Notes under the pieces: generated by a model
Databases searched by the model: none
Told to the model about the DNA's origin: nothing
The model's input: only the letters and a program-made list of their open reading frames with translations
Position numbers and translations under genes: made by a program
Shown: positions 8,500 through 45,080 of the stretch, one piece after another
Numbering within the stretch: the first letter of the stretch is position 1
Layout: each line of letters starts with the position of its first letter
Virus genome (UHGV): UHGV-0010228
Length of the DNA stretch: 64,000 nt
Strand: one strand, 5' to 3'
DNA from: a virus

Positions 8500-9990
8500 A
8501 TGAGTACAAAAAATTATAATCCAATTACCGATTCATTGTTAACTGGAGCAAGAATCACAAAGATCCCTTTAGATCTTGATTGCTGGAATGATTTTCAAAC
8601 TGGTAAGGGAATCAGATTAACTTCAGTTGAAAGTTTTGATAAAAAGAATGAAAAGATTGAAAATGGTCTTCAGTCAGAATTCTTTGGTACAGATTTCGCT
8701 GACGATGAAGCATTTAAAGAAAGATTTAGATGCAAATGTGGTAAATATATAGGATCATCATATCGAGGAATGATATGTGAAAAATGTCAGTCTGAAGTTG
8801 AATATGTTGATATTGATCTTGAAAAGTTTGGATGGATCGTGATGGATCATTTTGTTGTAATAGCTCCTGTATATTATGCTAAGCTTATTGATGCATTAGG
8901 CAAAGTTGATGGTGAACCTGTAATCAATCATATTCTTACAGTAAAATATGATGATACTGATAATGTTGAATATACTGATAAAGAATTGAAGATGTTAAAA
9001 AATCACCCTTACATTAAAAAAGGAATGATTTGGTTTCATGATCATTATAAAGAAGTACTTGAGTATTATATGCGTCAGAAATCAGATAAAAAGACGGCTT
9101 TATTTGAAGAATTAATCAATGAAGTAGATTGCGTATTTACTCATTGTATTCCAGTATTTTCATCAGTATTAAGAACTGAAATGCCTAATGGAGAAAAAGG
9201 ATCTAAATCTTATAAATTAAAGATCAATACTATATATAAATCAATCATTAAACTTTCTAATGCAATAAATAAAACTAATGTTACAGATATGGACGATCAT
9301 GTAATTAATTCTGTAAATATAAAATTAGCTGCAGTGCAGAAAGAGATTGGCGTATTATTTGAAGAAATAGTAAAGACTATGACTTCAAAGACTGGAATAA
9401 TTAATGGTAAAGTATTGGGCGGACGATATAATTTCTCTAGTAGACAGATAATAGTTCCAGCATCAGGTAGAATAAGATCAGATGAAATAGAAATGGGATA
9501 TTTACCATTTCTGGAATTATATAGATACGAAATCATTAACTATTATGCAAAGATCAATAATTGTACTATACAAGAAGCTAGTTATGTATGGAAAAAAGCA
9601 ACCAATCATTTTGATCCAACTATATTTAAAATAATGGAATACATGGTTTCATCTTCAAAGTATAATAAATTTATGTGGGTTATATTAAACAGAAATCCTA
9701 GCATTAATTATGGATCATTTATTTCAGTACGAGTTGCAAGGGTTAAACCTGGATTAAATGATAAAACATTAGGAGTATCTCCACAGGTTATTATACCTAT
9801 GAACGCAGACTTTGATGGTGATGTGTTAAATGTTTATAGAATAGTCGGTGCAGATATGGCTAAAGATATAAGTAAGAATCTTAGGCCTAGTACAAACTTA
9901 TTTGTATCAAGAATGACAGGTAAAGCTAATACTGAAACTCTTCCTAATAAAGAAGAGATAACCTCATTCTGGGCATTTAATAATATCTAA
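8500..9990 (+). CDS. multisubunit RNA polymerase beta-prime subunit, N-terminal fragment (phage-encoded split RNAP)
   Basis: NADFDGD catalytic Mg-binding motif (IIPMNADFDGDVLNVYRI). N-terminal Cys cluster CKCG...CEKC (beta-prime zinc-binding element). RQIIVPASG resembles beta-prime region C. AGGAGG RBS. Confidence 0.85.
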   Translation: MSTKNYNPITDSLLTGARITKIPLDLDCWNDFQTGKGIRLTSVESFDKKNEKIENGLQSEFFGTDFADDEAFKERFRCKCGKYIGSSYRGMICEKCQSEVEYVDIDLEKFGWIVMDHFVVIAPVYYAKLIDALGKVDGEPVINHILTVKYDDTDNVEYTDKELKMLKNHPYIKKGMIWFHDHYKEVLEYYMRQKSDKKTALFEELINEVDCVFTHCIPVFSSVLRTEMPNGEKGSKSYKLKINTIYKSIIKLSNAINKTNVTDMDDHVINSVNIKLAAVQKEIGVLFEEIVKTMTSKTGIINGKVLGGRYNFSSRQIIVPASGRIRSDEIEMGYLPFLELYRYEIINYYAKINNCTIQEASYVWKKATNHFDPTIFKIMEYMVSSSKYNKFMWVILNRNPSINYGSFISVRVARVKPGLNDKTLGVSPQVIIPMNADFDGDVLNVYRIVGADMAKDISKNLRPSTNLFVSRMTGKANTETLPNKEEITSFWAFNNI

Positions 9991-10858: not shown

Positions 10859-13800
10859 GTGCGAAAGGTTAAATATTATAAATGCCCAGTGTGTGGAATG
10901 AAGTATCAATCATTAACAACCTGGACAAATCATCTTAATAAACAGCACCCGAACCAATTACCAAAAGGTTTCACTCCTGCACAGTATTTTTACTATTTAC
11001 AAACTGGAAAAGATCATGGGACTTGTATAGTATGTAAAAATCCAACTAAGTGGAATGAAGCTACTGGTAAATATGATAGATTCTGTGATAACCCAAATTG
11101 TAAAAAAGAATATCGTGAGTTATTTAAAAAACGAATGATTGGTAAATATGGAAAATCAACACTATTAGATGATCCTGCTCAACAGCGTAAAATGCTAGCC
11201 GGTAAAAAGAATAGTGGAATGTATGAATTTGAAGATGGTGGTAAGGTTGAATTTGTATCTACATACGAAAAAGACTTTTTACAGATGTTAGATAAATTTC
11301 TTCATTTTTCATCTTCTGACATTATGGGTCCATCACCACATACATATTATTATGAATATAAAAATCCTGAAGATTTAGAAAATGAAGGAAAGAAATTCTA
11401 TATCCCAGATTATTATATTCCATCTATTAATCTTGAAATAGAGATAAAGCAAAATACATCTACGCATCCAAAGATTCTTAGAATAGATAAGGTAAAAGAA
11501 AAAGAAAAAGATGCGATGATGAAAACTATAAGAGGTGTTCGTTATATTAAGATAATGGATAAAGATTATAGCAATTTCTTTGATCTTTTACTTAAGTTAA
11601 AAGAAGAGGCTATAGGGGATTCATCTGCATTAGAATTTGTAGTAGAAGATGCAAGATCTAATGGAGAAATCTGTTTAGAAAGTAAACGATCTGAATTACC
11701 TGATAGTGCATTTGGAATATCATCTGAAAGAAAATTTCCATTGGATACTCCGGATCATGTATTATCTGCTATTAAATTTTTTAATTATGCCAAACCTAGT
11801 GAAGAAAAAGAATTAGCCGGTAAAATAATAAAAGCAATTAAAAAATTTAATATCGAAAATGATGTATCGTTTAGTGATAAGAATAGATTCTCCAAATATT
11901 ACAATATGCCAGCAAATGAAATGCTTGGAAATTTTAGTCCTAAGAAGATTATTAAAGGAATTGCTAATCTATTCAACTTAAGTAAACCTATTGAGACTGG
12001 AATTGTTAATACTAGTTACAGCGAAATTCTTGATCTCGGTAAAGGATATGGCTTATATGGTAAACCAGAAGTAAATAAGTATCTTACTTTATCAAAAGTT
12101 CATATTGATAACGTGAATGGTATAATCTCAATTCATAATATTAATTTCAATGAGTTAATATCTAGAATTAGAGATACCTATAAAGAAAGAAGACTTGATA
12201 AACTCTTTGATAGAACATATAAAGGTAGAGATATTAAAAGATTTAATGCTAAGAGGATAAGCAGATCTCAAATGAATATTACATCATTACAAGCACCAAT
12301 CTTTTTTGCATTAGAGTTGGCGGTTTTATTTAAAGAGCTTTATGATAAATATAAAACTCCTTTATACAGTCATATCGTTAAGCAACTTTATGAAAAAACC
12401 TGGTTGAAAGATAGTGATAATAGTGATCCAATTGACAGAACTCAGCCTCAATATGTCACTGATAGATTTAAAAAAGATTATACCTTAAAAGATTATCAGT
12501 TAGAATTTGTAATAAAATATCCTAAACTAAAGCATAAACTTAATTTAGACGGATATATATTAGCATTTGAGCAAGGATTAGGTAAAACTATAACTGCTGT
12601 AGCTTTAGCAGAAGCTATGTCTGATAAAATTAAGCATGTATATATTGTATGCCCTAATACATTAATGTATAATTGGAAGGAAGAAATCGCTAGCTATTTT
12701 GTAAATCCACCTGAATGTATAATATGTGGCAAAGATAAATCAAGTTCTAATACTAAATATTTCATTACTAATAATGAAGGTATTAAGAAAATGATGCCTG
12801 AAATTAAATCTTCAAGTGGTAATATGCTTATAGTTGATGAAATTCACAATTTTAGAAATTATGACGGTAAGAGAACTAAGGAATTATTGGATCTCAAAAA
12901 CAAATTAGGAACACATGATGTATTATTAATGAGTGGTACACCTATAAAAGCATTACCATCAGAAATAGCCCCTGCATTAAAATTAATAGATCCATTATTT
13001 ACAGATGATGCTGCTAAGGCATATACTAATTGCTTTAAATATGATTCATATTTAGCAATGGATATTGTAAATAATAGATTTGGACAGATAATGTATCGTA
13101 AGAAGAAAGATGAAGTTTTAAAATTACCAGAAAAACGAGAAGGCGAATTAAAGTTGGTAATTAAGAATTCTGATAAATATCTTCTTAAAAATGTAAGAGC
13201 AGTAGTAAAAGAGATATTCGAAGACGAATATGCCAAATTAGAAGAAGAAAATAAGAAGATCATACCTGAATTTAGATTTAATATCGAAAGGTATTCATTA
13301 GCTTCTAAGCAACAAACTAAATCTTATTTATCAAAGATATTATATATCAATGATGTAAATAATGATGAAGGATTTGGTGGTATGCATGAGTTAGATCAGA
13401 ACTTTATAGATACCTTTATTGATAATTATATTGCTAATAACACTACAATTCCTAAACCGCTTATAAAGACTCTTAAAGAATATGAAAAGAAATTAATATG
13501 GATGAAACGATCTGCTATGGGTAAAGCCATTGGTAGAGTTTATCCAAAATATAGAGCAGAGATGTTTAATGCTCTATTTGATGAAAATAAAGAGAGAATA
13601 TTTGAAATGATAAATAATAATATTAAAAAGACAGTAATATTCTCTCAGTCATTACCAGTTGTAAAGCACATTTATGAAACTCTTAATGCAAATGGTATAC
13701 CAACAGTTAAAATTGTTGGTGGGGTTAATCCAACTGATAGATCAGATATAATAAATAAATTCAAATACGATGAATCAGTTAGAGTTATCGTTGCAACTTC

Positions 13801-14059
13801 ACAGAGTATGTCAACTGGTGTTACGTTAACATGTGCATCATTAATGTTTTTCTTTGGACCTCCGTATCGAAGTGCAGATTATGATCAATGCTGTGATAGA
13901 ATTCATCGAATTGGACAAGATAGTGATGTTAATATTTATAATGTTACTCTTATGAGTAATGGTAAAAACTTATCTAATCGTATGGATGATATTCTAAAAT
14001 GGTCAAAAGATATGTTTGATGCTGCAATAGATTCAAATATTGATGGAGGTAATGTATAA
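10859..14059 (+). CDS. SNF2-family helicase with N-terminal C2H2 zinc finger and zinc ribbon
   Basis: CPVCGMKYQSLTTWTNHLNKQH is a perfect C-x2-C-x12-H-x4-H finger. Helicase motifs: I (GLGKT), II (LIVDEIHNF), III (LMSGTPI), VI (QCCDRIHRIGQ). Start assigned to GTG; a perfect RBS-ATG at 10852 lies in a different frame (see findings). Confidence 0.8.
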   Translation: MRKVKYYKCPVCGMKYQSLTTWTNHLNKQHPNQLPKGFTPAQYFYYLQTGKDHGTCIVCKNPTKWNEATGKYDRFCDNPNCKKEYRELFKKRMIGKYGKSTLLDDPAQQRKMLAGKKNSGMYEFEDGGKVEFVSTYEKDFLQMLDKFLHFSSSDIMGPSPHTYYYEYKNPEDLENEGKKFYIPDYYIPSINLEIEIKQNTSTHPKILRIDKVKEKEKDAMMKTIRGVRYIKIMDKDYSNFFDLLLKLKEEAIGDSSALEFVVEDARSNGEICLESKRSELPDSAFGISSERKFPLDTPDHVLSAIKFFNYAKPSEEKELAGKIIKAIKKFNIENDVSFSDKNRFSKYYNMPANEMLGNFSPKKIIKGIANLFNLSKPIETGIVNTSYSEILDLGKGYGLYGKPEVNKYLTLSKVHIDNVNGIISIHNINFNELISRIRDTYKERRLDKLFDRTYKGRDIKRFNAKRISRSQMNITSLQAPIFFALELAVLFKELYDKYKTPLYSHIVKQLYEKTWLKDSDNSDPIDRTQPQYVTDRFKKDYTLKDYQLEFVIKYPKLKHKLNLDGYILAFEQGLGKTITAVALAEAMSDKIKHVYIVCPNTLMYNWKEEIASYFVNPPECIICGKDKSSSNTKYFITNNEGIKKMMPEIKSSSGNMLIVDEIHNFRNYDGKRTKELLDLKNKLGTHDVLLMSGTPIKALPSEIAPALKLIDPLFTDDAAKAYTNCFKYDSYLAMDIVNNRFGQIMYRKKKDEVLKLPEKREGELKLVIKNSDKYLLKNVRAVVKEIFEDEYAKLEEENKKIIPEFRFNIERYSLASKQQTKSYLSKILYINDVNNDEGFGGMHELDQNFIDTFIDNYIANNTTIPKPLIKTLKEYEKKLIWMKRSAMGKAIGRVYPKYRAEMFNALFDENKERIFEMINNNIKKTVIFSQSLPVVKHIYETLNANGIPTVKIVGGVNPTDRSDIINKFKYDESVRVIVATSQSMSTGVTLTCASLMFFFGPPYRSADYDQCCDRIHRIGQDSDVNIYNVTLMSNGKNLSNRMDDILKWSKDMFDAAIDSNIDGGNV

Positions 14060-15872: not shown

Positions 15873-17009
15873 TTATTTAACCTCTACATTGATTTCTGCG
15901 ATTCCTCTCCAGACTCTACGGTCAGTTTTATTAACATGATTTAGATGCCGATAATTATTTACTTTATTACACCAATCTAAATGATTAGTAACATTAATTT
16001 TACTTGGATCAATATAGCAACAAGCTGCGACTTTTTCAATATCAGACAACTTATTGAAGTTTCTTGAATCTTTCTTCAATTTCTTGTTAATCTTTCTAGT
16101 CATCTGATTTAGATTGTCATAAAAATCGTTACGTAATCGTCTAATATGCCAGTTCGGTATATTATATCTCTCTATAATTTCTGCAACTGATAAATCACGC
16201 CTGTAAATTCTAACAAGATCCTGAGTTGATAATAAATACTGTTCTATAATATCATTTATCGACTCGCATCTCTGGTGATACGATTTATTTTCGATATTAA
16301 CATTTTTATCATCATCAATATTGCTATTGTTATCATTTTTATCATCCTTTTCTACAACTTCATGATTAATATTTTTTACTTTAATATCTTCATCCTGAAT
16401 TGAATATGAATCGAGCAACTTTTCAGTTGCATTTTTCCTTGCATTATTAAATGCTTCTAATATTGCTGTACCAGTATTAGTATTAAACTGGCCATTTACA
16501 TCATTAGCGGGCTTATCCCCAATCTTAAGATTTGGATGGGTCTGACCAACTAATGTAGTCATGCAGTCCTTACTAATATTCTCACTATTGGCAATTTCAT
16601 ATGATGGTGTAAATAAATATTCCACCGATTTTAAATATGGTGGAACTTCATCCGTTAACCCCATATGAAATGCTAACGCTTTAGTCACAGCCTTCATTGT
16701 AATGGAGTCAAGCGCTCCATTTGTTTTTGTTATATATTTAGAGTTTATTGTAATAGGGCTCCAAGGCTCAATTACAGACTCTCTAAAAATATCCGTCTGC
16801 TCTCCTCTACTCATACCATTAATGCAGACCTTTATTCCAGGTCTCTTCCTTGTAGTTAATGGTACTACAGTTATTGAGTCAAATAACTGATTTGGTTCAG
16901 ATACCACTACGAGTGGTCTATTGTCAAGATACTCAAACTGAGAACCATGTAATCCAGGTTCATTTACATAAACGATTGTACCTTTTGCGAAGAAGTGATT
17001 TGTACTCAT
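15873..17009 (-). CDS. MazF/PemK-like N-terminal domain protein with long C-terminal extension (possible HTH)
   Basis: Start set at the internal ATG with AAGGAGG RBS (MSTNHFFAKGTIVYV...). N-terminus KGTIVYVNEPGLHGSQFEYLDNRPLVVVS...ITVVPLTTRKR follows the MazF/PemK consensus (GdIv.vdf.p..G.E....RP.vVlS....v.v.PlTs). C-terminal DLSVAEIIERYNIPNWHIRRL is HTH-like. Confidence 0.6.
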   Translation of the reverse strand: MSTNHFFAKGTIVYVNEPGLHGSQFEYLDNRPLVVVSEPNQLFDSITVVPLTTRKRPGIKVCINGMSRGEQTDIFRESVIEPWSPITINSKYITKTNGALDSITMKAVTKALAFHMGLTDEVPPYLKSVEYLFTPSYEIANSENISKDCMTTLVGQTHPNLKIGDKPANDVNGQFNTNTGTAILEAFNNARKNATEKLLDSYSIQDEDIKVKNINHEVVEKDDKNDNNSNIDDDKNVNIENKSYHQRCESINDIIEQYLLSTQDLVRIYRRDLSVAEIIERYNIPNWHIRRLRNDFYDNLNQMTRKINKKLKKDSRNFNKLSDIEKVAACCYIDPSKINVTNHLDWCNKVNNYRHLNHVNKTDRRVWRGIAEINVEVK

Positions 17010-17121
17010 AATAAATTCCTCCTTTTTATTATTAATCATATGAGTTGTAACTTCATTATAATAATATATACACTAAAAATCTTTTTTTTTTCGGTGTATG
17101 TTAGAACGGAGGTATTCGTAA

Positions 17122-18048
17122 ATGAAAGTTAATTATAATGCAATAATTCAATCATATGAAAATATTATTAAATGTATTACTAACGATTTCGCTGAATATT
17201 CTTATGCATATGAAGCAGCCGGAGATGAACAGCAAGATATTGATAATAATGAAGCAATGAACGCAAAAAAGAATCCAAATACTCAAATTGGAAAATTAGA
17301 AAAAACCTTTGGTACAACATTAAAAAATATAGTCGATAAAATAGTAACTACATTTAAAAGACTCATTACTAAATTATCAAATAGATTACAGTTGATATGG
17401 GAAAGCGATAAGAGATATAAGAAAGAATTACGAACTGATCAGATATCTATTAAACCGATTAAAGGAGTTCAGGTTATATCATATAGATATAACACAGCAT
17501 ACTTAAAATCTGTTAAGAGTGAACTTCATAATGCATATCAGAAAATAATGATTGGTATGACTAATATGGCACCAACTAACACAGTCGATGAGTTAAAAGA
17601 TCTAAAAAAGAGTAATCCACAAGCAATTATTAATATAATGATACAGAAAGCTACTAAGAATTCATCACTTTCATCAGCATCTGAATTTTATAATGAAATA
17701 AAAAATAAGTTTCGTGGTGAAAAAAAGAAGATGTCATGGACAGTTAATCAATTACAAACTTTAATTGCAGCATCTGAAGAATTAGGTACAGTTAGAGCAA
17801 CGTTAGAAAAATGTAAATCTGATGCTCAGAATTTCCAGAAAAATCTTGAAAGAGTAGTTAAGAATTATCAGCATCAAAATAAAGGGATTACTGATAATCA
17901 GGAAAAAGTAAAATTAATATCTCAAATCACTGAAAGAGGGTTAGTTTTATCAACATTTTACACTACTGCTATGGAATATATTGCAGAATTAGAAACTGAG
18001 AGAGTATTAGCATATAGATCAATAGTAAAAAGATTTTACAATAGATAA
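17122..18048 (+). CDS. hypothetical protein (coiled-coil rich)
   Basis: GGAGG RBS; 308-aa ORF on an otherwise minus-strand-dominated stretch. Confidence 0.65.
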   Translation: MKVNYNAIIQSYENIIKCITNDFAEYSYAYEAAGDEQQDIDNNEAMNAKKNPNTQIGKLEKTFGTTLKNIVDKIVTTFKRLITKLSNRLQLIWESDKRYKKELRTDQISIKPIKGVQVISYRYNTAYLKSVKSELHNAYQKIMIGMTNMAPTNTVDELKDLKKSNPQAIINIMIQKATKNSSLSSASEFYNEIKNKFRGEKKKMSWTVNQLQTLIAASEELGTVRATLEKCKSDAQNFQKNLERVVKNYQHQNKGITDNQEKVKLISQITERGLVLSTFYTTAMEYIAELETERVLAYRSIVKRFYNR

Positions 18049-18092
18049 TAAATCAGGATATATCCTTATGGGATATATCCTAATACTTTTAT

Positions 18093-20516
18093 TTATTTTT
18101 TAATAGTAGATAATTTATCTTTTATACCATTCTTCGTTAAATCTTTAAACATTGAAATGTCATTTTCAGTAAGATCAAGTTTCTTTAATATTTCCTTTAC
18201 AGAATCAGTTTCTTTAATCATATCCCAGCAATAATCTGATTTTTCTCCAGGAGATGATTCTATCATAGTAAATGATTCCATTGCAGAAATATATTCATCA
18301 AATAATTGATTATAATACTGAAGATTCTCATATTTATCGTATATAGTATAACCTCTAATTTGTAATGGCATTGCTATATTAGAATATACTTTATTTTCAA
18401 TATCAGAATCCTTTGCAGTTATGAATTCAATACGGAGACCTATTGCTTTCATATATGCATTTAAAGTATCGGCAGATGAATTTCTATATGCATCTTTAAG
18501 ATTTAACTTCTTTATCTCCAATGGATCACCTTTAGACGCAAGAATCTTTCCAAATTCTTTTCTTCCTATAGGCGAAGTTCTGCCGTACACACCATATGTA
18601 GCTATTATTCTACCCGATATGGCTGGTAATAAACCATGATTCTCAGTTAATCTAACAGGAGTTTTTGCATATGAACTCCTGTTAGTTTTCTTTGCAGAAT
18701 CTTTAGCTGGCTGATTAGTTCTGTTTAAGCTACCGGTTGATCTAGCAGAAAAGTTCTTACTAGAATTCTGTTTTAGAATCATCATATATTCATAACCAAC
18801 TACAGCTTTACGCATAACTTTACGATTTTTTGTGCCAAATAAATTTATATATAACTGTACTGGTTCTATCCATGGAAATTCATCATATAAGGCAGTTATA
18901 TCTTCATATCGTAATGGGGTATGAATCATTCTTACTAAATAAAATCCATCATCTTCAATACTCTTAATAAATTTCTCTTTAGCACCAGGATTTAACATTC
19001 TAAGTTTATAGCCACTAGTTGTTTCTACAGTTTGATCATAGCTATTATATAAATTATGATAGAATGTTGCATGTTCCATATTTACCATTGATAAGAATTT
19101 AAAGATTAAATCTTCTTTTTCTTTCATATCAGTCATTACTTGCAGACGATGTTGAATTCTTTCTGCTATGAAATTCAATTCAACTTCCATCAACTGTGCA
19201 GGATTTAGCCTACGTACACTTCCTGATTGTGATAATAAAATATCAACATTTATTCGTTCTCCAGTATCGGGGTCATAGTAAAATGGCATTCTTTCATCAT
19301 CGATGACTGTGGCTGTAATATTAGGATCTAATCCTATTGCGGGTTCATCCTCATTAAATGATGCGATAACACCTTTATTTCCATAACGTCCAGTGATTTT
19401 TGAACCATGCTCAAGAGGTACTGCAGATTTAACTTTAAATTTAACTATAATGTGTTTGAATGCTTTGTCTTTATTTCTCCACTTATACTCATCATTATTA
19501 TAATTTAAATATTTATCACGATATCTGAGTATATTCATAGTGTATTTAGATTTTGAGTTCTTAATCTTATTACACCATTTGAGTACTTCATATGCATACT
19601 TACAACCAGCTTCATAATACTTCTTAAGTTGTTTATGAAATAAATTATCTGGAAATTCTTCATCACCATTATAGAATACATCTATATCATATACTATAGA
19701 GTTTTTAGATACAAAATATTCCTTATCAGTATCATATGGATGCTTTAAATTATCTGACTGAAAATCATAAATGATATGAGAATTATTAATCCTTCTACTT
19801 GCACAGATTTCAGAATTTTTAACTTTCTCACCTATATCTGGAAATACTTTATAATCATCATTATCTCCATATAGATTTAATAAGATATCATTTGTGTTTA
19901 TAGAAACTTCTACATTATCAACTTCAGTTGATAATACTTTATTAGCCCACGATCTTCTTATAGCAATTGAATCTTCTAATGTATCTGTTGATATCGAATA
20001 TAATACTCTGGCATTCTTACCAAATCTATAATTCATATTATCATCATATGACGTTGATTTATATAAGATATCATCTCTTATAAAATCTCCAACTTTTAAT
20101 GAATCCATACATTCAGTATTATACTCATAACCAAATTTCTCAGTTAAATTTTCTGCTATAGGTCTTTCGATCATATCATACGTTTTAGTTTCTGTATTAT
20201 ATAATACCAGCATATATATTCCTTTATTTTCAAATTTAGGAATTATATCTTTAACTTCCCACTCGCCAGAAAGTTCTTTATATGATTTATTGTATTTACC
20301 TATAGCATTTTCAAACCCAGATGCTAATCTAGGCACATCAGGATTTAATAAAGTGAGGCACTGTTTAATATGCGCAGTAAACATGTAGGCACGGGAAGAG
20401 TCTATATCTCTCCCCCCTGCCAGTAATGAAGGACCGAACATTTTATACATATTATCCCCACTATATTTTTCATCCATTTCCTCAAGTTTCTGTTTTAAAT
20501 GTGTGTCTATTGGCAT
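18093..20516 (-). CDS. multisubunit RNA polymerase beta subunit, C-terminal fragment (phage-encoded split RNAP)
   Basis: TGRYGNKGVIASF matches the beta motif GRHGNKGVISK. The following DILLSQSGSVRRLNPAQLMEVELN parallels [26 protein letters not shown] RBS. Confidence 0.85.
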   Translation of the reverse strand: MPIDTHLKQKLEEMDEKYSGDNMYKMFGPSLLAGGRDIDSSRAYMFTAHIKQCLTLLNPDVPRLASGFENAIGKYNKSYKELSGEWEVKDIIPKFENKGIYMLVLYNTETKTYDMIERPIAENLTEKFGYEYNTECMDSLKVGDFIRDDILYKSTSYDDNMNYRFGKNARVLYSISTDTLEDSIAIRRSWANKVLSTEVDNVEVSINTNDILLNLYGDNDDYKVFPDIGEKVKNSEICASRRINNSHIIYDFQSDNLKHPYDTDKEYFVSKNSIVYDIDVFYNGDEEFPDNLFHKQLKKYYEAGCKYAYEVLKWCNKIKNSKSKYTMNILRYRDKYLNYNNDEYKWRNKDKAFKHIIVKFKVKSAVPLEHGSKITGRYGNKGVIASFNEDEPAIGLDPNITATVIDDERMPFYYDPDTGERINVDILLSQSGSVRRLNPAQLMEVELNFIAERIQHRLQVMTDMKEKEDLIFKFLSMVNMEHATFYHNLYNSYDQTVETTSGYKLRMLNPGAKEKFIKSIEDDGFYLVRMIHTPLRYEDITALYDEFPWIEPVQLYINLFGTKNRKVMRKAVVGYEYMMILKQNSSKNFSARSTGSLNRTNQPAKDSAKKTNRSSYAKTPVRLTENHGLLPAISGRIIATYGVYGRTSPIGRKEFGKILASKGDPLEIKKLNLKDAYRNSSADTLNAYMKAIGLRIEFITAKDSDIENKVYSNIAMPLQIRGYTIYDKYENLQYYNQLFDEYISAMESFTMIESSPGEKSDYCWDMIKETDSVKEILKKLDLTENDISMFKDLTKNGIKDKLSTIKK

Positions 20517-20576: not shown

Positions 20577-21401
20577 TTAAGATACGAGATGATCAATGAT
20601 GCTATTATATGATGGTGGAGTAAACGATAATATTGGTGTGTAATCAACAATATCACCATTATCATCAACGTTAAACTCTATCCTAGCATAACCAAATTTG
20701 AGTAGATCACCCACACTAAGTTTTCTAGAATCGAATTCCTCGATATATTCATCAGATATATTCATCAATTCTTTCATGCTATGAAAATATACAATTCCCT
20801 TCAACTCATTTCTATCATGAATTATAATCACTGACGATTTTGCATCTTCAATTACATTTTGTATGACATTTATATAGTTCGCTTCTGAATGATATTTATT
20901 TGAATCTATAGATACTCTATGTATAGTTAATATTCTAGGGGTCACAATATTCATACATACTACTCTGTTAAAGTTCATAGAATTATTACTGTGTGAACCA
21001 TCTGAACATCTATCTGGTAATGTAATCCACAATCTAACACCATTACTATTACTTCCATAATCGCAAGAATAGTATAATGTTGGATATTCGTCATCCATTG
21101 TAGATATACCGTCATACACCCCCTCATAATAAATTTTAGGAGTATATCTTGTCATTTTTTCTTCAATTTTAATTGCATCTGAATATGCAAAACTTAAAGA
21201 TCTCCAATCATCGGCGTATGATATAAGCTCTTTGATATACTCTAAGCTAACAGAATCACCGAGGCTTCCATATAATGGGTATAAATTCATCGTATCAAGA
21301 TCAATAAGCATCTCAATTGTATCATACTTAACTAGCAATAATGAAAATCTTAAGGCTTTGGGATTATTCTGCAATTCCTTTACTGCTTCTACAAATTTCA
21401 T
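20577..21401 (-). CDS. hypothetical protein
   Basis: GGGAGGAG RBS, 274-aa ORF. Confidence 0.65.
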   Translation of the reverse strand: MKFVEAVKELQNNPKALRFSLLLVKYDTIEMLIDLDTMNLYPLYGSLGDSVSLEYIKELISYADDWRSLSFAYSDAIKIEEKMTRYTPKIYYEGVYDGISTMDDEYPTLYYSCDYGSNSNGVRLWITLPDRCSDGSHSNNSMNFNRVVCMNIVTPRILTIHRVSIDSNKYHSEANYINVIQNVIEDAKSSVIIIHDRNELKGIVYFHSMKELMNISDEYIEEFDSRKLSVGDLLKFGYARIEFNVDDNGDIVDYTPILSFTPPSYNSIIDHLVS

Positions 21402-21419: not shown

Positions 21420-22631
21420 TTAATAATTAAGTGAAATGTCTCCAAATCGAATTATATTAGATTTATCTTTAGCGGATAATATTTCTGGTTGATCACTTAA
21501 TAACCCTTCTAAATATGGGCGTAAAATTGATAAGACTGCTTCTCTGAATGGTTCTTCTTCAACAAATTTACGTCTAAAATCTTTTCTATTAAACTTAAAT
21601 GTGTCTAAACCTTCAAAGTATAGATAAGGGTTTCTACCAGATATTATTCCTATCTCCTGAGCAAATTCGTATAATGTATATACTGGATCATAACCGACAT
21701 CACTAATAAATGCTACAGGGAATTTAACACCAACAGTATTCTGTTTTGATTTTGCTAATTCAAATATACATTTATAACCTTTAAATCCATTATCATCTAA
21801 AGTATATGAATCAGATTTTTTAGAATTAATTCTAATCACCCATTGACTATAAAACTGAGCGACTGATCCTCTAGGAAGTGTTTCCTGAGGACCGAGCATC
21901 ATTAATCCTCTAGGTGGTGCAGCATATGGATTCGTATCTGCTTTAGGTCTAATATGGTTTACCACAATAAATGAAATATTATAATGCCAAGCTCTATCTA
22001 AGCAATTTGTATAGAAACGAGTAACATCCTTTGCTGCTCTCATTTGATCGATATTATTACCGAGATCTTCTACATTATAATCTTTACTATTAAATGCTGG
22101 CAATGAATCAATGATAAATACTGTAGGTACATAAACCTCCATTGGTTTACCGTTAAAACTTCTATCTTCTATTTTATATTTGTAAGCATTTCCACCAGCT
22201 TCTTTTGCATTACAGATATCATTAATTAAATTCAAAACATCTTCAATCGTTGTTGCAGTTTTGATAATTTTGATTCTAGGATCATCATAATCTGCACCAG
22301 TAATCTGTATTACTCTTTGTCTTAATGCAGTTTTCTCAGTATCAATATAATACATAACACCATCTTCAAATTTTCTTATAATGCTATACCCTAACTGCAT
22401 TGCGAATGTTGATTTACCAGATCCAGTTGTACCTATTACCTGTCCAAATGTACCTCCCATTATTCCTAATGATGGTACATTTCTAACATTACCTTCTGAA
22501 TCTGTAATTGTCTGCCAAAATCCATTAGCATAATCTAATGGAAGTATTCCCGTAGGATATGTAACATATTCATCATTACCTCGGAATACTCCTTTTTTGT
22601 CTTTCGCTTCAAGATCTGATATCAGTCCCAT
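21420..22631 (-). CDS. RecA/UvsX-like recombinase (RecA-fold ATPase)
   Basis: Collinear with RecA: LPLD, Walker A GTTGSGKST, YIDTE, Walker B VFIIDSLPAF, and a QMRAAKDVTRF...ISFIVVNHIR loop region. AGGAGG RBS. Confidence 0.8.
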   Translation of the reverse strand: MGLISDLEAKDKKGVFRGNDEYVTYPTGILPLDYANGFWQTITDSEGNVRNVPSLGIMGGTFGQVIGTTGSGKSTFAMQLGYSIIRKFEDGVMYYIDTEKTALRQRVIQITGADYDDPRIKIIKTATTIEDVLNLINDICNAKEAGGNAYKYKIEDRSFNGKPMEVYVPTVFIIDSLPAFNSKDYNVEDLGNNIDQMRAAKDVTRFYTNCLDRAWHYNISFIVVNHIRPKADTNPYAAPPRGLMMLGPQETLPRGSVAQFYSQWVIRINSKKSDSYTLDDNGFKGYKCIFELAKSKQNTVGVKFPVAFISDVGYDPVYTLYEFAQEIGIISGRNPYLYFEGLDTFKFNRKDFRRKFVEEEPFREAVLSILRPYLEGLLSDQPEILSAKDKSNIIRFGDISLNY

Positions 22632-22706
22632 TTGTTTTCCTCCTTTAAATATATATTACTGCAATTGTCATTGAAATAATATATATCTAAATATTATATG
22701 CAAAAA

Positions 22707-22736: not shown

Positions 22737-22740
22737 TATA

Positions 22741-26214: not shown

Positions 26215-27429
26215 TTATTTAAAGAAGGTGTCTAAGACATTCTGTTTTGCATCTAACGTATCTTCAGCATCACTCATTAATCTAGAATTTGTTGAAGTTT
26301 TCTTTATGAAATCAAATTCGTTTACATCATTTGCTAAATTGATTTCTTTCTGTCGTTTAATTCTTTCTTCAGCTTCCTTAATAACTTCTTTGCATTTTAA
26401 TAATCTTGCATATGGAAGATTCATTCCTGAAAGAATTAAAATAAACTGTCCTAATGTAGTGTTACTTATAGAATAGTTTTCAAATATAGCTAATGGGGTA
26501 CCGATATAATCGGTAAGTTCAGAATAGTTACCAGATTTGGTAGCTTCAGCCATTTCTTCTGGACAATTGACAATAACACCCATCTGCTTAACAATACTAT
26601 CACGATTCATATCTGCCGCTGGTGATCTTCTTATCTTATCGATCATATACTTCTGTATTGAAGCTTTATCAACCTGCTCCTGAGTGACTTTATCTATCAT
26701 ATATACTGCACCGTAACCAGGTTCGCCAACAATAACTCTCATATCATTCTCATCTATCATGCCATTTTTAGATGCATTAAGATATTTACCAGCGATAGTA
26801 TTGATTGATGTTATAATATTATCAGCAACACCTGCATACGCAATATCATTTGAATCTTCTTCATAATACGATAAATCTGCAAGCATATATGATACACCTT
26901 TAATTTCACTTATTTCATTAATACAGTCTAATGTATTATACTGTGCCTGAATACTATCTGAAAGTTTAGGGAGTATCCCATAATACTTTATTATCTTAGA
27001 TGGATACATCTGTGTTAATAAAGATACGACAACTGGCGATATTCCAGATCCTGTACCTCCAGCAGTACTAGACACTACAAATACAATATCTGCACTTTCT
27101 ATAATCTTTGAGAATTCTGCATTAGTAAATAATTCTTTGCCATTATAATTGAAGATCTTCTTAGCATATTCTCTATTCTTACCTGCACCTCTTGCCTCTT
27201 TACCAGCAATAAATGAAGGTATATGTTCATTAACTACAGTATCATTTAAATCTTTTAATGATGAATTAATTGCAAATACACTATATCCTTCTCTATATGC
27301 TCTTGCAACTATTTGATTACCAGCATTTCCAATACCTATAACTGCAATTGACAATTTAACTTTATTTTCAAGATTTTCTCTTACATCAAGTATTGGACTG
27401 GCAGTTTTTATGTTATCTTCATATTCCAT
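26215..27429 (-). CDS. tubulin/FtsZ-superfamily GTPase (PhuZ/TubZ-like phage tubulin)
   Basis: T1-like loop IGIGNAGNQI near the N-terminus and tubulin signature VVSSTAGGTGSGISP (GGGTGSG with one substitution). 404 aa. GGAGG RBS. Confidence 0.8.
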   Translation of the reverse strand: MEYEDNIKTASPILDVRENLENKVKLSIAVIGIGNAGNQIVARAYREGYSVFAINSSLKDLNDTVVNEHIPSFIAGKEARGAGKNREYAKKIFNYNGKELFTNAEFSKIIESADIVFVVSSTAGGTGSGISPVVVSLLTQMYPSKIIKYYGILPKLSDSIQAQYNTLDCINEISEIKGVSYMLADLSYYEEDSNDIAYAGVADNIITSINTIAGKYLNASKNGMIDENDMRVIVGEPGYGAVYMIDKVTQEQVDKASIQKYMIDKIRRSPAADMNRDSIVKQMGVIVNCPEEMAEATKSGNYSELTDYIGTPLAIFENYSISNTTLGQFILILSGMNLPYARLLKCKEVIKEAEERIKRQKEINLANDVNEFDFIKKTSTNSRLMSDAEDTLDAKQNVLDTFFK

Positions 27430-27496: not shown

Positions 27497-28237
27497 TTAT
27501 TTTACTTTATCATTACCTCTAGGACCATTAATTTCTCCAAGATCAGTAATGAGATTTGTAGAAATACCTTGCATTGCAAAATATACATCTAATGTATTAA
27601 GAGCGACCTTATTATATGGATCATTATCTAAATCCTGAAGGCTTACATAACCATCTTTAGATATACTCTTATACATTTCAGCTTTAGCCTTAGTATCATC
27701 TGCTCTAGGTCCCATAAATTCTTTTAATGCATTATCAGCACCTAATGCTATAAGTGAATAAGTTTCAGTATCAGTATTTCTAGCATTCTTATCATGTCCA
27801 GTTACCTGACCAGTTAATGAACTTCTAGATTCAATTTCAATAGAACCTGCAGATTTCTTTAATAATGTCTGAGGCATTCGTTTCTCATGAATATATCCAA
27901 CTGGAACTGGGGTTGGAGTAACTGTCACTACATTAGGATCTTCACTATTATATGGTAATGCAACTCGTTCATATAATGGAACTTTCATAAATTTAGCACA
28001 GTTTTCTAAATCCTTCATTGTAAATACTCTTTCAAATTCTATTATCTCTAAATAGAATTGGGCATTATCATCATTAAAGAATTCCCTTATATGTCTATCA
28101 AATTCTTGATCAGTCATTTTATCATATTTCTCATGATATATCTTCGAATTATCACCAGTTGGATCTAATAGGTCCATAACCGAGGTTAAATAATTCATAA
28201 ATTCTTTACGCTTTTGTGCGATTGACTTCACTACCAT
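27497..28237 (-). CDS. hypothetical protein
   Basis: Start moved to the ATG (MVVKSIAQ...) preceded by GGAGGTG. Confidence 0.65.
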   Translation of the reverse strand: MVVKSIAQKRKEFMNYLTSVMDLLDPTGDNSKIYHEKYDKMTDQEFDRHIREFFNDDNAQFYLEIIEFERVFTMKDLENCAKFMKVPLYERVALPYNSEDPNVVTVTPTPVPVGYIHEKRMPQTLLKKSAGSIEIESRSSLTGQVTGHDKNARNTDTETYSLIALGADNALKEFMGPRADDTKAKAEMYKSISKDGYVSLQDLDNDPYNKVALNTLDVYFAMQGISTNLITDLGEINGPRGNDKVK

Positions 28238-28697
28238 AATTTTTAATAACACCTCCTATATCAATATCACATGATATTGTGGCATATTTAGATATCTCAC
28301 AAAATAACTCATATGATTTTTCAAATACCGAATCATTTCTATACAAAAAACAAGCAATGATATCATAGAACCAATGATCGTTCTCATCATCAATTGTTTT
28401 AAGATATGGATATTTTAATATATTGTGCTCTGTATCATATTTTGGTACATTTCTTTTATATTCATCATGATATGTCAATTCTAAGCAATATTGATATATA
28501 GAATTAGTTGTTTCATATAATTGCTCGGCAATTATTCTAGCGTTTGGATAATTAGCAACTCTGGATAAAATAGTTTTTCTTATATAGAATACATTAGCAA
28601 GATATTTATCAATCCATGCATATTCCGATAAACCACTTCGTACAAGATTTGCTTCAAATTCTTGTATAAAAATTCCAATAAATGCCATATTTATCAC
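28206..28697 (-). CDS. hypothetical protein
   Basis: 163-aa ORF; 3' end overlaps the next gene start. Confidence 0.6.
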   Translation of the reverse strand: MINMAFIGIFIQEFEANLVRSGLSEYAWIDKYLANVFYIRKTILSRVANYPNARIIAEQLYETTNSIYQYCLELTYHDEYKRNVPKYDTEHNILKYPYLKTIDDENDHWFYDIIACFLYRNDSVFEKSYELFCEISKYATISCDIDIGGVIKNYGSEVNRTKA

Positions 28698-32489: not shown

Positions 32490-33119
32490 CTATATAGTTG
32501 CAGCTTTTTTCTGAGTCTTATTATTGACCCCTTCTTTTATGGAGTCAATAACAGATCTCTCAGCGTTCTTGTTCTTATGAACACTCTTTGCGGCCTTCTT
32601 CATAGCCGCATTATATGCCGCGGCATTTCTAGCCGTAGCCTTAGATACGGCTTTGCGACCGTACTTTTCAGCAGCGCTGAGATATTTCATCTCAGCGTCA
32701 CATTTATCGGCTTTATCGCCATAATCTGACGACTCGACAGTATTTGTATTAACAACAAATCTGTCGTATGAATCCTCCCAAAGAGGATTCTCCATTATGC
32801 TCATATTGAGCATATGAATCAGCGAAAGCAACTGCTTTCTCTGAAATATATTATTCAGAGAAAGCAGTTGCTTGCCTATGACAATGCCATAGTCCCCGAT
32901 CATAAGATCGAGATTGTTAATTTCAAATATTCCGATTGGAATATCGATCGGAATATTTGAATTCTTTTCCTTCTTAGAGTTAAACGATGTTAACTCTAAG
33001 ATTTTATCCTCTGTAGTAAACAGAGGATAAAATCTTTTGCCATCAGCAACATATCCTTTTATTGACACAGGCTTAAGCTTGCCTGTGTTTTCTTTTTTAA
33101 AATTAAAAATCTTTAACAT
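32490..33119 (-). CDS. hypothetical protein with GC3-rich Ala/Lys-rich C-terminal region
   Basis: GGAGG RBS. The 3' roughly 270 nt (32490-32760) is markedly GC-richer than the genome. Contains a 20-bp perfect inverted repeat at 32826-32873. Confidence 0.6.
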   Translation of the reverse strand: MLKIFNFKKENTGKLKPVSIKGYVADGKRFYPLFTTEDKILELTSFNSKKEKNSNIPIDIPIGIFEINNLDLMIGDYGIVIGKQLLSLNNIFQRKQLLSLIHMLNMSIMENPLWEDSYDRFVVNTNTVESSDYGDKADKCDAEMKYLSAAEKYGRKAVSKATARNAAAYNAAMKKAAKSVHKNKNAERSVIDSIKEGVNNKTQKKAATI

Positions 33120-44555: not shown

Positions 44556-45080
44556 ATGAATTATTCGGTTATAAAAAAACATGATGTAGCAAATGGTCCT
44601 GGAGTTAGAGTTTCACTTTATGTGTCTGGATGTTCGCATCATTGTAAAAATTGTTTTAATCCTGAGACTTGGGATAAAAATTATGGTTCAATATTTACTT
44701 TAAAAGAAAGAATTGAAATAATTGATGCATTAAGACCTGATTATATTGAAGGTCTAACAATATTAGGCGGAGATCCAATTGAACCTTATAATATTTCTGA
44801 AGTTATTAAACTTATAAAGAGTGTAAAGGTTGTGTATCCAGATAAATCTATTTGGTTATATACTGGATATAAATTTGAAGATCTATTATCTGAGAAATTA
44901 ATCCCCGATCGTAGTATTAGAGATGATATTACAAGATATATTGATGTTATTGTAGATGGAGAGTTCGAAGAAGAAAATAAAGTTATTGATTTAAGATTTA
45001 GGGGATCTACAAATCAAAGAATCATCGATGTTAAAAAGAGTGTTAAAGAAGATTCCATTATATTATGGACAGATAAATAA
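44556..45080 (+). CDS. nrdG: anaerobic ribonucleotide reductase activating protein (radical SAM)
   Basis: GPGVRVSLYVSGCSHHCKNCFNPETW matches the NrdG G-x-G-x-R...GC-x3-C-x2-C-x-N signature. GAGGAGG RBS. Confidence 0.85.
   Translation: MNYSVIKKHDVANGPGVRVSLYVSGCSHHCKNCFNPETWDKNYGSIFTLKERIEIIDALRPDYIEGLTILGGDPIEPYNISEVIKLIKSVKVVYPDKSIWLYTGYKFEDLLSEKLIPDRSIRDDITRYIDVIVDGEFEEENKVIDLRFRGSTNQRIIDVKKSVKEDSIILWTDK

What the first reader, a model, noticed from the sequence alone, without database searches (positions are those of the whole stretch)
18093..20516. Stand-alone RNA polymerase beta-subunit C-terminal fragment
TGRYGNKGVIASF plus the downstream DILLSQSGSVRRLNPAQLMEVELN stretch align to the beta-subunit active-site-proximal segment (GRHGNKGVISK ... 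[20 protein letters not shown]). At 807 aa it covers only the C-terminal half of a beta subunit, again implying a split-gene RNAP. It sits about 8 kb from the beta-prime N-fragment and more than 25 kb from the beta-prime C-fragments, so the RNAP subunit genes are dispersed rather than operonic.
Basis: partly seen in the sequence, partly recalled or inferred. Interest (0 to 1): 0.75.

Follow-up and report, generated by a model that had tools for sequence, protein, structure and literature searches.

The report
Jumbo-phage split RNA polymerase βC subunit
This gene encodes the C-terminal half of the β subunit of a phage's own split multisubunit RNA polymerase, a well-documented arrangement in jumbo phages, here in an uncultured human-gut phage related to Bacillus phage AR9.

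Summary
The ORF is real: 18093..20516, minus strand, 807 aa. It is the ortholog of the βC subunit (gp089) of the Bacillus phage AR9 non-virion RNA polymerase (nvRNAP): PDB 7S00 chain C E=1.8e-76, Foldseek E~1e-48, reciprocal best hit, about 30% identity. It covers E. coli RpoB from about residue 650 to the C-terminus and keeps the conserved β motifs. A piece of a second, virion-type RNAP lies at 46590..47810. The gene is the last of a three-gene unit (UvsX-like, orf274, βC). That unit follows an AR9-type early promoter motif, ATATATTAT-N6-G (16 copies against 2.9 expected), and ends in a hairpin. Split, dispersed RNAP genes are the documented norm for these phages, so this is a new member of a known kind. 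The host genome is an uncultured human-gut phage (contigs up to about 256 kb) with hundreds of relatives near 50% identity. Two things are less ordinary. The clade has a C-terminal domain of about 95 aa with no detectable sequence or fold relative. No gp226-like specificity subunit was found in the window.

The parts
18093..20516 (-). βC subunit gene of the phage non-virion multisubunit RNAP (807 aa), ortholog of AR9 gp089
   Evidence: ORF found. Pfam Rpb2_6. PHROG 3295 at 9e-84. PDB 7S00_C at 1.8e-76. Foldseek 7S01_C/7S00_C at E~1e-48, TM 0.74-0.76. Reciprocal best hit at 4.6e-81.
19368..19391 (-). GRYGNKGV motif (residues 376-383), equivalent to E. coli β 1064-1071 GRHGNKGV
   Evidence: G376, R377, G379, K381 and G382 are invariant or nearly invariant in 64 homologs.
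19173..19244 (-). DILLSQSGSVRRLNPAQLMEVELN (residues 425-448), equivalent to E. coli β ~1090-1113 [20 protein letters not shown]
19302..19361 (-). Clade-variable insertion after the GRYGNKGV motif (residues ~386-405). It is absent in AR9 and modelled with low confidence.
   Evidence: alignment; pLDDT below 50
18096..18383 (-). Clade-specific C-terminal extension domain (residues ~712-807): a β-hairpin plus four helices, with invariant Y735 and W764. It is absent from AR9 gp089 and S6 βC.
   Evidence: Alignments. AF2 domain model with pLDDT 87. No fold match in PDB or BFVD. No Pfam match. Found only on βC proteins among 1.84 billion cluster representatives.
22669..22684 (-). Early-promoter-like motif ATATATTATTTCAATG (ATATATTAT-N6-G), 53 nt upstream of the first gene of the unit that contains βC
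   Evidence: It matches the AR9 early promoter AAATATATATTAT-(6N)-G(+1) (PMC5312081).
21420..22631 (-). UvsX-like recombinase, first gene of the inferred unit. UvsX-to-βC synteny is shared with AR9 and two gut relatives.
   Evidence: PHROG 97; AR9 synteny; relatives
20577..21401 (-). orf274, second gene of the unit, with no family match
18052..18084 (-). Terminator-like hairpin (GGATATATCC arms) followed by a T-rich tract, just after the βC stop codon. It also reads as a hairpin on the + strand for the convergent gene 17122..18048.
8500..9990 (+). β'N subunit of the same nvRNAP (496 aa), with the catalytic NADFDGD at residues 435-441
   Evidence: PDB 7S00_d at 3e-41; Pfam Rpb1_2; motif
48050..50086 (-). 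β'C subunit of the same nvRNAP (678 aa)
   Evidence: PDB 7S00_D at 3.3e-48
52280..54040 (-). βN subunit of the same nvRNAP (586 aa), the missing N-terminal half of β
   Evidence: PDB 7S00_c at 2.2e-36; weak match to RpoB 482-592
46590..47810 (+). β'-like piece of the second (virion) RNAP, the enzyme inferred to transcribe the βC gene. It is not a subunit of the same enzyme.
   Evidence: 30.6% identity, E=1e-52, to an AR9 gene annotated 'virion RNAP subunit'; Staphylococcus phage homologs are annotated 'viral RNA polymerase beta-prime subunit'

Best explanation
The ORF encodes the βC subunit of a jumbo-phage non-virion RNA polymerase (nvRNAP) of the AR9 type. The polypeptide supplies the C-terminal half of a bacterial-type β subunit, from about E. 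coli RpoB residue 650 to the end. That includes the second-largest-subunit side of the active centre (GRxGNKG, the PxRxN segment and ARSTG). It is inferred to assemble with three separately encoded partners found in the same window: βN at 52280..54040, β'N at 8500..9990 (which carries the NADFDGD Mg2+ site), and β'C at 48050..50086. Together they would form an α-less, ω-less catalytic core. By analogy with AR9 and phiKZ, the gene would be expressed early. It would be read as the last cistron of a UvsX-like/orf274/βC transcript started by the injected virion RNAP at an ATATATTAT-N6-G promoter and ended at a hairpin. The assembled nvRNAP would then transcribe late genes, probably from AACA-N6-TA promoters, with help from a specificity subunit that has not been identified. 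Shown here: homology, fold, domain extent, motif conservation, presence of all four core genes, and promoter-motif enrichment and placement. Inferred: assembly, timing of expression, which polymerase reads which promoter, and the role of the clade-specific C-terminal domain.
For: Identity: Pfam Rpb2_6 above cut-off. PHROG 3295 at 9e-84. PDB phmmer gives AR9 nvRNAP chain C at 1.8e-76, collinear over residues 16-700, and phiKZ nvRNAP chain C at 9e-10. The AF2 model (pLDDT 79.7) gives Foldseek matches to AR9 nvRNAP βC at E~1e-48 (TM 0.74-0.76), then phiKZ nvRNAP βC at ~2e-33, then bacterial β at ~1e-25. AR9 gp089 hits only this ORF in the window, at 4.6e-81. The AR9 record annotates its gene as 'non-virion RNAP subunit; beta subunit, C-terminus'. 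Staphylococcus phage homologs are annotated 'non-viral RNA polymerase beta subunit'.

Extent: the family profile aligns with RpoB 659-709, 1054-1080, 1083-1145 and 1222-1249 in order.

Partners.

Selection: the ORF is intact, there are hundreds of homologs near 50% identity, and the active-centre residues are invariant.

Expression: ATATATTAT-N6-G occurs 16 times against 2.87±1.77 expected, and no shuffle out of 100 reached 16. Fifteen copies are intergenic and all of those point at the downstream gene. The core and spacing equal the experimentally mapped AR9 early promoter (PMC5312081). The same promoter/UvsX/βC layout occurs in the 53%-identical relative L014.

Late promoters: AACA-N6-TA gives 8 sense hits against 2 antisense in upstream windows, with shuffle p~0.003. 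The hits include the virion-RNAP β' gene and a virion structural gene.
Against: No gp226/gp68-like fifth subunit was detectable in the window, using a single sequence, a 7-member family profile and the conserved 2.1bis motif. A database search with the family profile recovered only close relatives of the known gp226 proteins. Identity to AR9 is only about 30%. The protein has about 140 extra residues of unknown role. The lysine equivalent to E. coli β K1073 is Ser here (GVIAS against GVISK) and is variable across the clade. AR9 βN residues that form the -10 uracil pocket (R363, K375) align to K407 and T419, so promoter recognition may differ from AR9. Everything about assembly, timing and activity is inferred. 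The promoter classes rest on sequence motifs alone, and the late-promoter sample is small.
Confidence: 0.9

Rival explanations
1. It is the βC subunit of the virion-packaged RNAP (vRNAP), not of the non-virion enzyme.
For: The genome encodes a second RNAP set: 46590..47810 matches an AR9 virion RNAP subunit. No virion proteome exists for this uncultured phage.
Against: All best hits are to nvRNAP βC subunits, namely AR9 gp089 and phiKZ PHIKZ071. tblastn finds a single place per AR9-type genome at E<=1e-5, and it is the nvRNAP gene, so the vRNAP paralog is far more distant. The only other PHROG of possible β type scored 19.5 bits against 283 bits. There is no N-terminal HD domain, which Bacillus-phage vRNAP βC proteins have (PMC7598289; Pfam). 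The gene sits behind an early-type promoter, as AR9 nvRNAP genes do.
Confidence: 0.04
2. It is a decayed or non-functional remnant of an rpoB-like gene, or a piece of a gene interrupted by an intron or intein, and not a working subunit.
For: βC genes of some Staphylococcus jumbo phages are broken into 2-3 pieces in their annotations. The K1073-equivalent residue is not conserved.
Against: The reading frame is uninterrupted over 807 aa, with an RBS. The length is collinear with the solved AR9 subunit. Sixty-eight columns are invariant across 64 homologs, including the active-centre motifs. The βN partner lies 32 kb away with many unrelated genes in between, so this is not an intron-split gene. 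All four core genes are intact.
Confidence: 0.02
3. It is a genuine nvRNAP βC subunit, but the holoenzyme works differently from AR9. It would lack a gp226-type σ-like subunit, and the clade-specific C-terminal domain, or an unrelated factor, would take over promoter specificity or assembly.
For: No gp226 homolog was found in the window or recovered for this clade. A conserved, confidently folded C-terminal domain exists with no known relative. The uracil-pocket residues of βN are not conserved. ThyA, DHFR and a TMP-kinase-like gene suggest thymine DNA.
Against: The window covers only about a quarter of a genome of about 250 kb. gp226 and gp68 diverge beyond sequence recognition even between AR9 and phiKZ (PMC9209446). 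The AR9 late-promoter pattern AACA-N6-TA appears enriched upstream of late-type genes here, which points to AR9-like specificity.
Confidence: 0.15

Closest known systems
Bacillus phage AR9 nvRNAP βC subunit gp089 (PDB 7S00/7S01 chain C; RefSeq BI022_gp088)
   Same: It is a full-length collinear homolog (E=1.8e-76) with the same fold (Foldseek TM 0.74-0.76). It covers the same part of β and is a stand-alone gene with separate βN, β'N and β'C genes dispersed in the genome. A UvsX-like gene lies upstream. The same early-promoter core and spacing occur in the genome.
   Different: Identity is only about 30%. The protein is 807 aa against 665 aa, with an insertion after GRYGNKGV and a C-terminal domain of about 95 aa that AR9 lacks. 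AR9's 61-aa downstream ORF is unrelated to that domain. No gp226 partner has been found so far. The host phage encodes ThyA, DHFR and a tubulin, whereas AR9 is a uracil-DNA phage (the AR9 statement comes from the literature).
Pseudomonas phage phiKZ nvRNAP β-like C-terminal subunit (PHIKZ071, gp71-73; PDB 7OGP/8QUE chain C)
   Same: It plays the same structural role and has the same fold (Foldseek E~2e-33; phmmer 9e-10). Both belong to a five-subunit α-less RNAP.
   Different: It is much more distant, at about 16% structural-alignment identity. phiKZ belongs to the nucleus-forming Chimalliviridae and uses gp68 and TATG-type late promoters.
Staphylococcus jumbo phage 'non-viral RNA polymerase beta subunit' (S6, PALS_2, UFV_DC4, Machias, etc.)
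   Same: Identity is about 30% over 91% of the query, in the same subunit family.
   Different: In several of these phages the gene is annotated in 2-3 pieces. S6 βC (713 aa) does not match the C-terminal extension profile.
Bacterial RNAP β subunit (E. coli RpoB), C-terminal half
   Same: It retains the conserved segments equivalent to RpoB 659-709, 1054-1145 and 1222-1249 and the overall fold.
   Different: It is a separate polypeptide beginning near RpoB residue 650. Identity is about 16%. H1237 and K1073 are replaced by Ser. The lineage-specific inserts differ. No α or ω partners are expected (PMC7598289).
Naturally split cellular RNAP large subunits (archaeal B'/B'', cyanobacterial γ/β')
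   Same: The concept is the same: a large subunit encoded as two genes that assemble into one functional module.
   Different: According to the review, the jumbo-phage β split sites match neither the archaeal split nor each other (vRNAP against nvRNAP), so they arose independently (PMC7598289). This was not tested here.

Membership tests
Jumbo-phage non-virion RNAP βC subunit (AR9 gp089 / phiKZ gp71-73 family) | Full-length sequence and fold homology to the solved nvRNAP βC subunits | tested here: met
   phmmer against 7S00_C at 1.8e-76 over residues 16-700. Foldseek 7S01_C/7S00_C at E~1e-48 and 7OGP_C at 1.8e-33. Reciprocal best hit.
Jumbo-phage non-virion RNAP βC subunit (AR9 gp089 / phiKZ gp71-73 family) | Contains the conserved C-terminal β regions (Rpb2 domain 6, GRxGNKG, PxRxN, ARSTG) | tested here: met
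   Pfam PF00562 at 31.3 bits against a cut-off of 23.4. Motif alignment to RpoB. The motifs are invariant across 64 homologs.
Jumbo-phage non-virion RNAP βC subunit (AR9 gp089 / phiKZ gp71-73 family) | Encoded separately from a βN partner, with split β'N and β'C genes also present | tested here: met
   βN at 52280..54040, β'N at 8500..9990 with NADFDGD, and β'C at 48050..50086
Jumbo-phage non-virion RNAP βC subunit (AR9 gp089 / phiKZ gp71-73 family) | Closer to nvRNAP than to vRNAP paralogs; a second (virion) RNAP set coexists | tested here: met
   There is a single tblastn place per AR9-type genome, and it is the nvRNAP gene. The vRNAP β' piece at 46590..47810 is shown. No explicit phylogeny was built.
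Jumbo-phage non-virion RNAP βC subunit (AR9 gp089 / phiKZ gp71-73 family) | Early gene transcribed by the virion RNAP; product absent from virions; enzyme transcribes late genes | not testable with these tools
   Support is indirect only: an AR9-type early promoter motif heads the unit, and AACA-N6-TA lies upstream of late-type genes.
Jumbo-phage non-virion RNAP βC subunit (AR9 gp089 / phiKZ gp71-73 family) | Holoenzyme includes a σ-like fifth subunit (AR9 gp226 / phiKZ gp68) | tested here: inconclusive
   None was found in the 64-kb window with a single sequence, a 7-member family profile or the motif, nor for this clade in the large database. The window is only about a quarter of the genome, and this subunit diverges beyond sequence detection.
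Bacterial-type full-length RNAP β subunit (RpoB) | A single polypeptide containing both the N-terminal (protrusion/lobe/fork) and C-terminal halves | tested here: not met
   The protein aligns only to RpoB 659-1249 and beyond. The N-terminal half is a separate gene 32 kb away.
Virion RNAP βC subunit of AR9-like phages | N-terminal HD phosphohydrolase domain fused to the β C-terminal fragment (Bacillus phages) | tested here: not met
   No HD domain appears in Pfam at E<=10. The feature is described in PMC7598289.
Chimalliviridae (nucleus-forming jumbo phages) | Encodes chimallin (nuclear shell protein) and PhuZ | tested here: inconclusive
   A PhuZ/TubZ-like tubulin is present at 26215..27429. 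No ORF in the window matched a chimallin-type family, and the 716-aa and 2167-aa ORFs have no hits at all. The rest of the genome was not examined.

The most novel reading that the evidence does not exclude
This abundant, uncultured human-gut jumbo-phage lineage is a thymine-DNA, tubulin-encoding sister of the uracil-DNA AR9/PBS1/S6 group. It keeps AR9-type early (ATATATTAT-N6-G) and late (AACA-N6-TA) promoter grammar. If so, its nvRNAP would be a natural thymine-tolerant version of the template-strand-reading polymerase. The βC-specific C-terminal domain, which has no fold match and occurs only in this clade, would be a new docking or assembly module. It could act for a highly diverged or replaced σ-like specificity subunit, or compensate for the missing α and ω subunits.
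Probability: 0.2. Interest if true: 0.6.

Novelty: new member of a known kind. Interest (0 to 1): 0.3.

Why it matters
The finding adds no new principle. Split, dispersed, α-less multisubunit RNAPs are established for phiKZ- and AR9-type jumbo phages, with solved structures. Its value is contextual. It shows that the AR9-type transcription system, down to the early-promoter core and spacing, extends into a large clade of uncultured human-gut jumbo phages: hundreds of cluster representatives on contigs of 220-280 kb. It also gives a complete four-gene core set for that clade that could be reconstituted. The clade-specific C-terminal domain on βC and the missing specificity subunit are concrete handles. 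They bear on how these α-less enzymes assemble and how promoter recognition moves between uracil and thymine DNA.

Tried and rejected
1. DNA-level search of 24 kb of the window against 50,697 phage records found no match. There is no close cultured relative.
2. gp226-like fifth subunit in the window: the 469-aa ORF at 33596..35005 was tested against the PDB and gave nothing. AR9 gp226 by phmmer --max and tblastn gave noise. A 7-member family HMM gave a best E of 0.19 (an earlier run, used wrong frames for the Staphylococcus loci and was redone). The motif Y[SNK]D.V[IM]W is absent in all six frames. A database search with the family alignment returned only close relatives. Its most distant hit, P0187, matches nothing in the window.
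3. The idea that the C-terminal extension equals AR9's 61-aa ORF abutting gp089 was rejected: the extension profile finds nothing in the AR9 locus. It does not match S6 βC either.
4. Fold searches of the extension domain found no significant match in the PDB (best E 0.68) or in BFVD (best E 0.37). The afdb50 library was unavailable. There is no Pfam match.
5. ORF 27497..28252 hits PHROG 3233, labelled 'RNA polymerase beta subunit'. I rejected it as an RNAP piece because its AR9 homolog is annotated 'hydrolase' and its phiR1-37 homolog 'structural protein'.
6. σ70-type promoters around the gene are fewer than in shuffles (34 against 46), so there is no support for host-RNAP promoters.
7. There are no tRNAs and no Rfam families in the window.
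8. The AR9 genome paper (PMC13189113) is not held. Whether AR9-type phages lack ThyA was therefore not verified here.
Full report
**Observation.** The window has a single long ORF on the minus strand from 20516 to 18093, ATG-initiated and 807 aa long. An AGGAG ribosome-binding site lies about 7 nt upstream of the ATG. The window is AT-rich (26-32% G+C) and gene-dense, and most genes are on the minus strand.

**What it is.**
- Pfam RNA_pol_Rpb2_6 scores 31.3 bits against a gathering cut-off of 23.4.
- PHROG 3295 'RNA polymerase beta subunit' matches at E=9.1e-84.
- Among solved structures, the best hit is chain C of the Bacillus phage AR9 non-virion RNA polymerase (7S00), at E=1.8e-76 and collinear over residues 16-700. 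Next is chain C of the phiKZ non-virion RNAP (E=9e-10), then bacterial β subunits over residues 365-470.
- An AlphaFold2 model built on 64 homologs (mean pLDDT 79.7) gives the same ranking by fold: AR9 nvRNAP βC at E~1e-48 (TM 0.74-0.76 normalised by target), phiKZ nvRNAP βC at E~2e-33, then full-length bacterial β at E~1e-25.
- The AR9 gene under the hit is annotated 'non-virion RNAP subunit; DNA-directed RNA polymerase beta subunit, C-terminus'.
- Staphylococcus jumbo-phage homologs are annotated 'non-viral RNA polymerase beta subunit'.
- AR9 gp089 hits only this ORF in the window, at 4.6e-81.
- tblastn finds a single place per AR9-type genome at E<=1e-5, so the virion-RNAP paralog is much more distant.

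**How much of β it covers.** A profile of 64 family members aligns collinearly with E. coli RpoB at an overall E of 3.1e-15:
- profile 22-72 with RpoB 659-709;
- profile 361-387 with RpoB 1054-1080 (GRHGNKGVISK);
- profile 424-485 with RpoB 1083-1145 (EDMPY...[20 protein letters not shown]);
- profile 577-604 with RpoB 1222-1249 (...ARSTG).

The C-terminal part of the βN protein weakly matches RpoB 482-592. The split therefore lies between about RpoB 592 and 659, and this protein supplies roughly the C-terminal 52% of β. Active-centre residues are invariant in 64 homologs, for example R42, Q52, R377, K381, G382, R435, R436, R592 and S593. Two E. coli crosslinking residues, K1073 and H1237, are Ser here. 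H1237 is also Ser in AR9, and the K1073 position varies within the clade.

**Partners.** All four catalytic-core pieces of an AR9-type nvRNAP lie in this 64-kb window.
- β'N is at 8500..9990 (7S00 chain d, 3e-41). It carries a canonical NADFDGD at residues 435-441.
- βC is the ORF under study.
- β'C is at 48050..50086 (chain D, 3.3e-48).
- βN is at 52280..54040 (chain c, 2.2e-36).

A further β'-like ORF at 46590..47810 is 30.6% identical (E=1e-52) to an AR9 gene annotated 'virion RNAP subunit'. The phage therefore has the usual two polymerase sets.

AR9's σ-like fifth subunit, gp226, was not found in the window. I searched with the single sequence, with a 7-member family profile and with its conserved 2.1bis-helix motif. 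A database search with the family alignment recovered only close relatives of the known proteins. This is weak negative evidence. The window is about a quarter of the genome, and this subunit is known to diverge beyond sequence recognition (PMC9209446).

**Expression unit.** The k-mer ATATATTAT is concentrated in intergenic DNA: 15 of its 27 copies fall in the 9% of the window that is intergenic. All 15 intergenic copies point at the downstream gene, lie 13-91 nt from its start codon, and have G exactly 6 nt after the motif. Only 1 of the 12 intragenic copies has that G. ATATATTAT-N6-G occurs 16 times against 2.87±1.77 expected, and none of 100 shuffles reached 16. The tighter form ATATATTATW-N4-TG occurs 13 times against 0.67 expected. 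This is the core and spacing of the experimentally mapped AR9 early (virion-RNAP) promoter, AAATATATATTAT-(6N)-G(+1) (PMC5312081; annotated AR9 examples).

One copy, at 22669-22684 on the minus strand, follows a terminator-like hairpin (22706-22737). It precedes a UvsX-like gene (21420..22631), then orf274 (20577..21401), then βC. A GGATATATCC hairpin with a T-rich tail (18052-18084) follows the βC stop codon. σ70-like promoters are not enriched in this region.

UvsX-to-βC synteny is shared with AR9 and with two gut relatives. The 53%-identical relative L014 also has an exact ATATATTAT-N6-G copy 53 nt upstream of its UvsX gene. The other relative, L015, lacks the motif. I infer that βC is the last cistron of an early transcript made by the injected virion RNAP, as in AR9 and phiKZ.

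The AR9 late-promoter pattern AACA-N6-TA, taken from the literature before I looked, lies 26-45 nt upstream of six genes that lack the early motif. These include the virion-RNAP β' piece and a virion structural protein. Across all upstream windows there are 8 sense hits against 2 antisense, shuffles give 2.4±1.5 (p~0.003), and the density is 7.6-fold the window average. This is suggestive only, because the sample is small.

**Source and clade.** The exact protein occurs on 14 contigs from human-gut metagenomes, including Hadza samples. Near-identical members of its 90% cluster sit on contigs up to 256.5 kb. No DNA-level match exists among 50,697 phage records. The large protein database holds hundreds of homologs at 44-55% identity, 810-930 aa long, many on contigs of 220-280 kb. 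The closest cultured relatives, at about 30% identity, are AR9/PBS1, BpSp, Listeria phage LPJP1, Staphylococcus S6/PALS_2 and phiR1-37. That group contains all known uracil-DNA phages (PMC7598289).

**What differs from AR9.** The gut-clade proteins share a variable insertion after GRYGNKGV (residues ~386-405, low model confidence). They also share a conserved C-terminal extension (residues ~712-807, with invariant Y735 and W764) that AR9 gp089 lacks. Modelled alone, the extension folds confidently into a β-hairpin plus four helices (pLDDT 87.1). It has no significant fold match in the PDB (best E 0.68) or in BFVD (best E 0.37). It has no Pfam match. It bears no relation to AR9's small ORF downstream of gp089 or to the S6 βC tail.

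An exhaustive profile search of 1.84 billion cluster representatives found only 30 matches. Those of 831-860 aa carry the domain at the extreme C-terminus, as here. All seven shorter hits I inspected are truncated βC gene calls that begin inside the conserved core. The function of the domain is unknown. A role in subunit assembly or factor docking is speculation.

**Comparison with what is known, and verdict.** Split β and β' genes scattered around the genome, two RNAP sets and the absence of α and ω are the defining and well-reviewed features of RNAP-encoding jumbo phages (PMC7598289). The AR9 and phiKZ nvRNAP structures are solved. The window also carries the group's core genes: a DnaB-like helicase, a family B DNA polymerase-like ORF, SbcC, RNase H, an NAD-dependent ligase and a primase. 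The ORF meets every testable membership criterion for the nvRNAP βC family. The one unmet item, a fifth subunit, is inconclusive. The finding is therefore a correctly read but ordinary feature: a new, divergent member of a known kind from an uncultured gut lineage. Residual interest lies in three things: the clade-specific C-terminal domain, the missing specificity subunit, and the combination of AR9-like promoters with ThyA, DHFR, a TMP-kinase-like gene and a PhuZ-like tubulin. That combination hints at a thymine-DNA relative of the uracil-DNA phages. In line with that, AR9 βN residues R363 and K375, which form the uracil pocket, align to K407 and T419 here. That alignment is tentative because identity is low.

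Noticed in passing
window, 16 sites, e.g. 8392-8407(-), 8439-8454(+), 17054-17069(-), 22669-22684(-), 31309-31324(-), 55306-55321(-), 58592-58607(-): A conserved promoter-like motif, ATATATTAT-N6-G, matches the AR9 early (virion-RNAP) promoter in both core and spacing. There are 16 copies against 2.9 expected. Fifteen are intergenic and point at the downstream gene. One back-to-back pair drives the primase and β'N genes divergently.
   Followed up: yes
window upstream of 10859(+), 31387(+), 38648..39388(-), 42360(+), 44556(+), 46590(+), 8500(+), 32490..33119(-): The AR9 late-promoter pattern AACA-N6-TA lies 26-45 nt upstream of genes that lack the early motif, including the virion-RNAP β' piece and a virion structural protein. 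There are 8 sense hits against 2 antisense, with shuffle p~0.003. The β'N gene has both motif types, like AR9 'continuously expressed' genes.
   Followed up: partly
window 46590..47810 (+): A 406-aa β'-like piece of a second, virion-type RNAP. It is 30.6% identical to the AR9 'virion RNAP subunit', so the phage has two multisubunit RNAPs.
   Followed up: yes
window 26215..27429 (-): A PhuZ/TubZ-like tubulin (Pfam Tubulin 3e-18; PHROG 'tubulin PhuZ' 5e-11). The 2020 review ties PhuZ to the pseudo-nucleus of thymine-DNA jumbo phages, which the uracil-DNA group lacks. No chimallin-like ORF was recognised in the window.
   Followed up: partly
window 45112..45654 (-), 45666..46526 (-), 51369..52274 (-), 44556..45080 (+): DHFR, thymidylate synthase (Pfam 7.6e-83), a thymidylate-kinase-like protein and an anaerobic RNR activase. 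ThyA plus DHFR argues for thymine DNA, although the closest cultured relatives are uracil-DNA phages. Whether AR9-type phages lack ThyA was not verified here.
   Followed up: partly
window 797..7300 (+) and 42360..44510 (+): A 2167-aa ORF and a 716-aa ORF have no PHROG or Pfam match at all.
   Followed up: no
window 15873..17039 (-): A 388-aa ORF with an N-terminal PemK/MazF-like toxin domain (Pfam 3.8e-07) sits behind an early-promoter motif. Its long C-terminal part has no match.
   Followed up: no
window 27497..28252 (-): This ORF hits PHROG 3233, labelled 'RNA polymerase beta subunit' (2.7e-39). Its AR9 homolog is annotated 'hydrolase' and its phiR1-37 homolog 'structural protein', so the PHROG label is probably a propagated mis-annotation.
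   Followed up: partly
window 52280..54040 (-), residues K407 and T419: In the pairwise alignment, AR9 βN gp105 residues R363 and K375, which form the -10 uracil pocket, align to Lys and Thr. Promoter-base recognition may therefore differ from AR9. Identity is low, so this is tentative.
   Followed up: partly
L014:3676-5913 (relative contig, 245.9 kb): The UvsX-like gene upstream of βC in a 53%-identical relative carries an insertion of about 340 aa right after the P-loop GxGK, with a faint LAGLIDADG hit. This looks like an intein. The window's copy has no such insertion.
   Followed up: partly
P0187 (ENA contig, 3.3 kb; not in the window): The most distant gp226-family protein recovered has Thr in place of AR9's uracil-discriminating V206 (YSDCTIW). 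That position is Val in all seven cultured-phage homologs I aligned.
   Followed up: no
window 10859..14059 (+): A 1066-aa fusion of an N-terminal endonuclease-like domain (PHROG 15137, 6.6e-60) with a helicase (PHROG 62, 1.7e-80).
   Followed up: no
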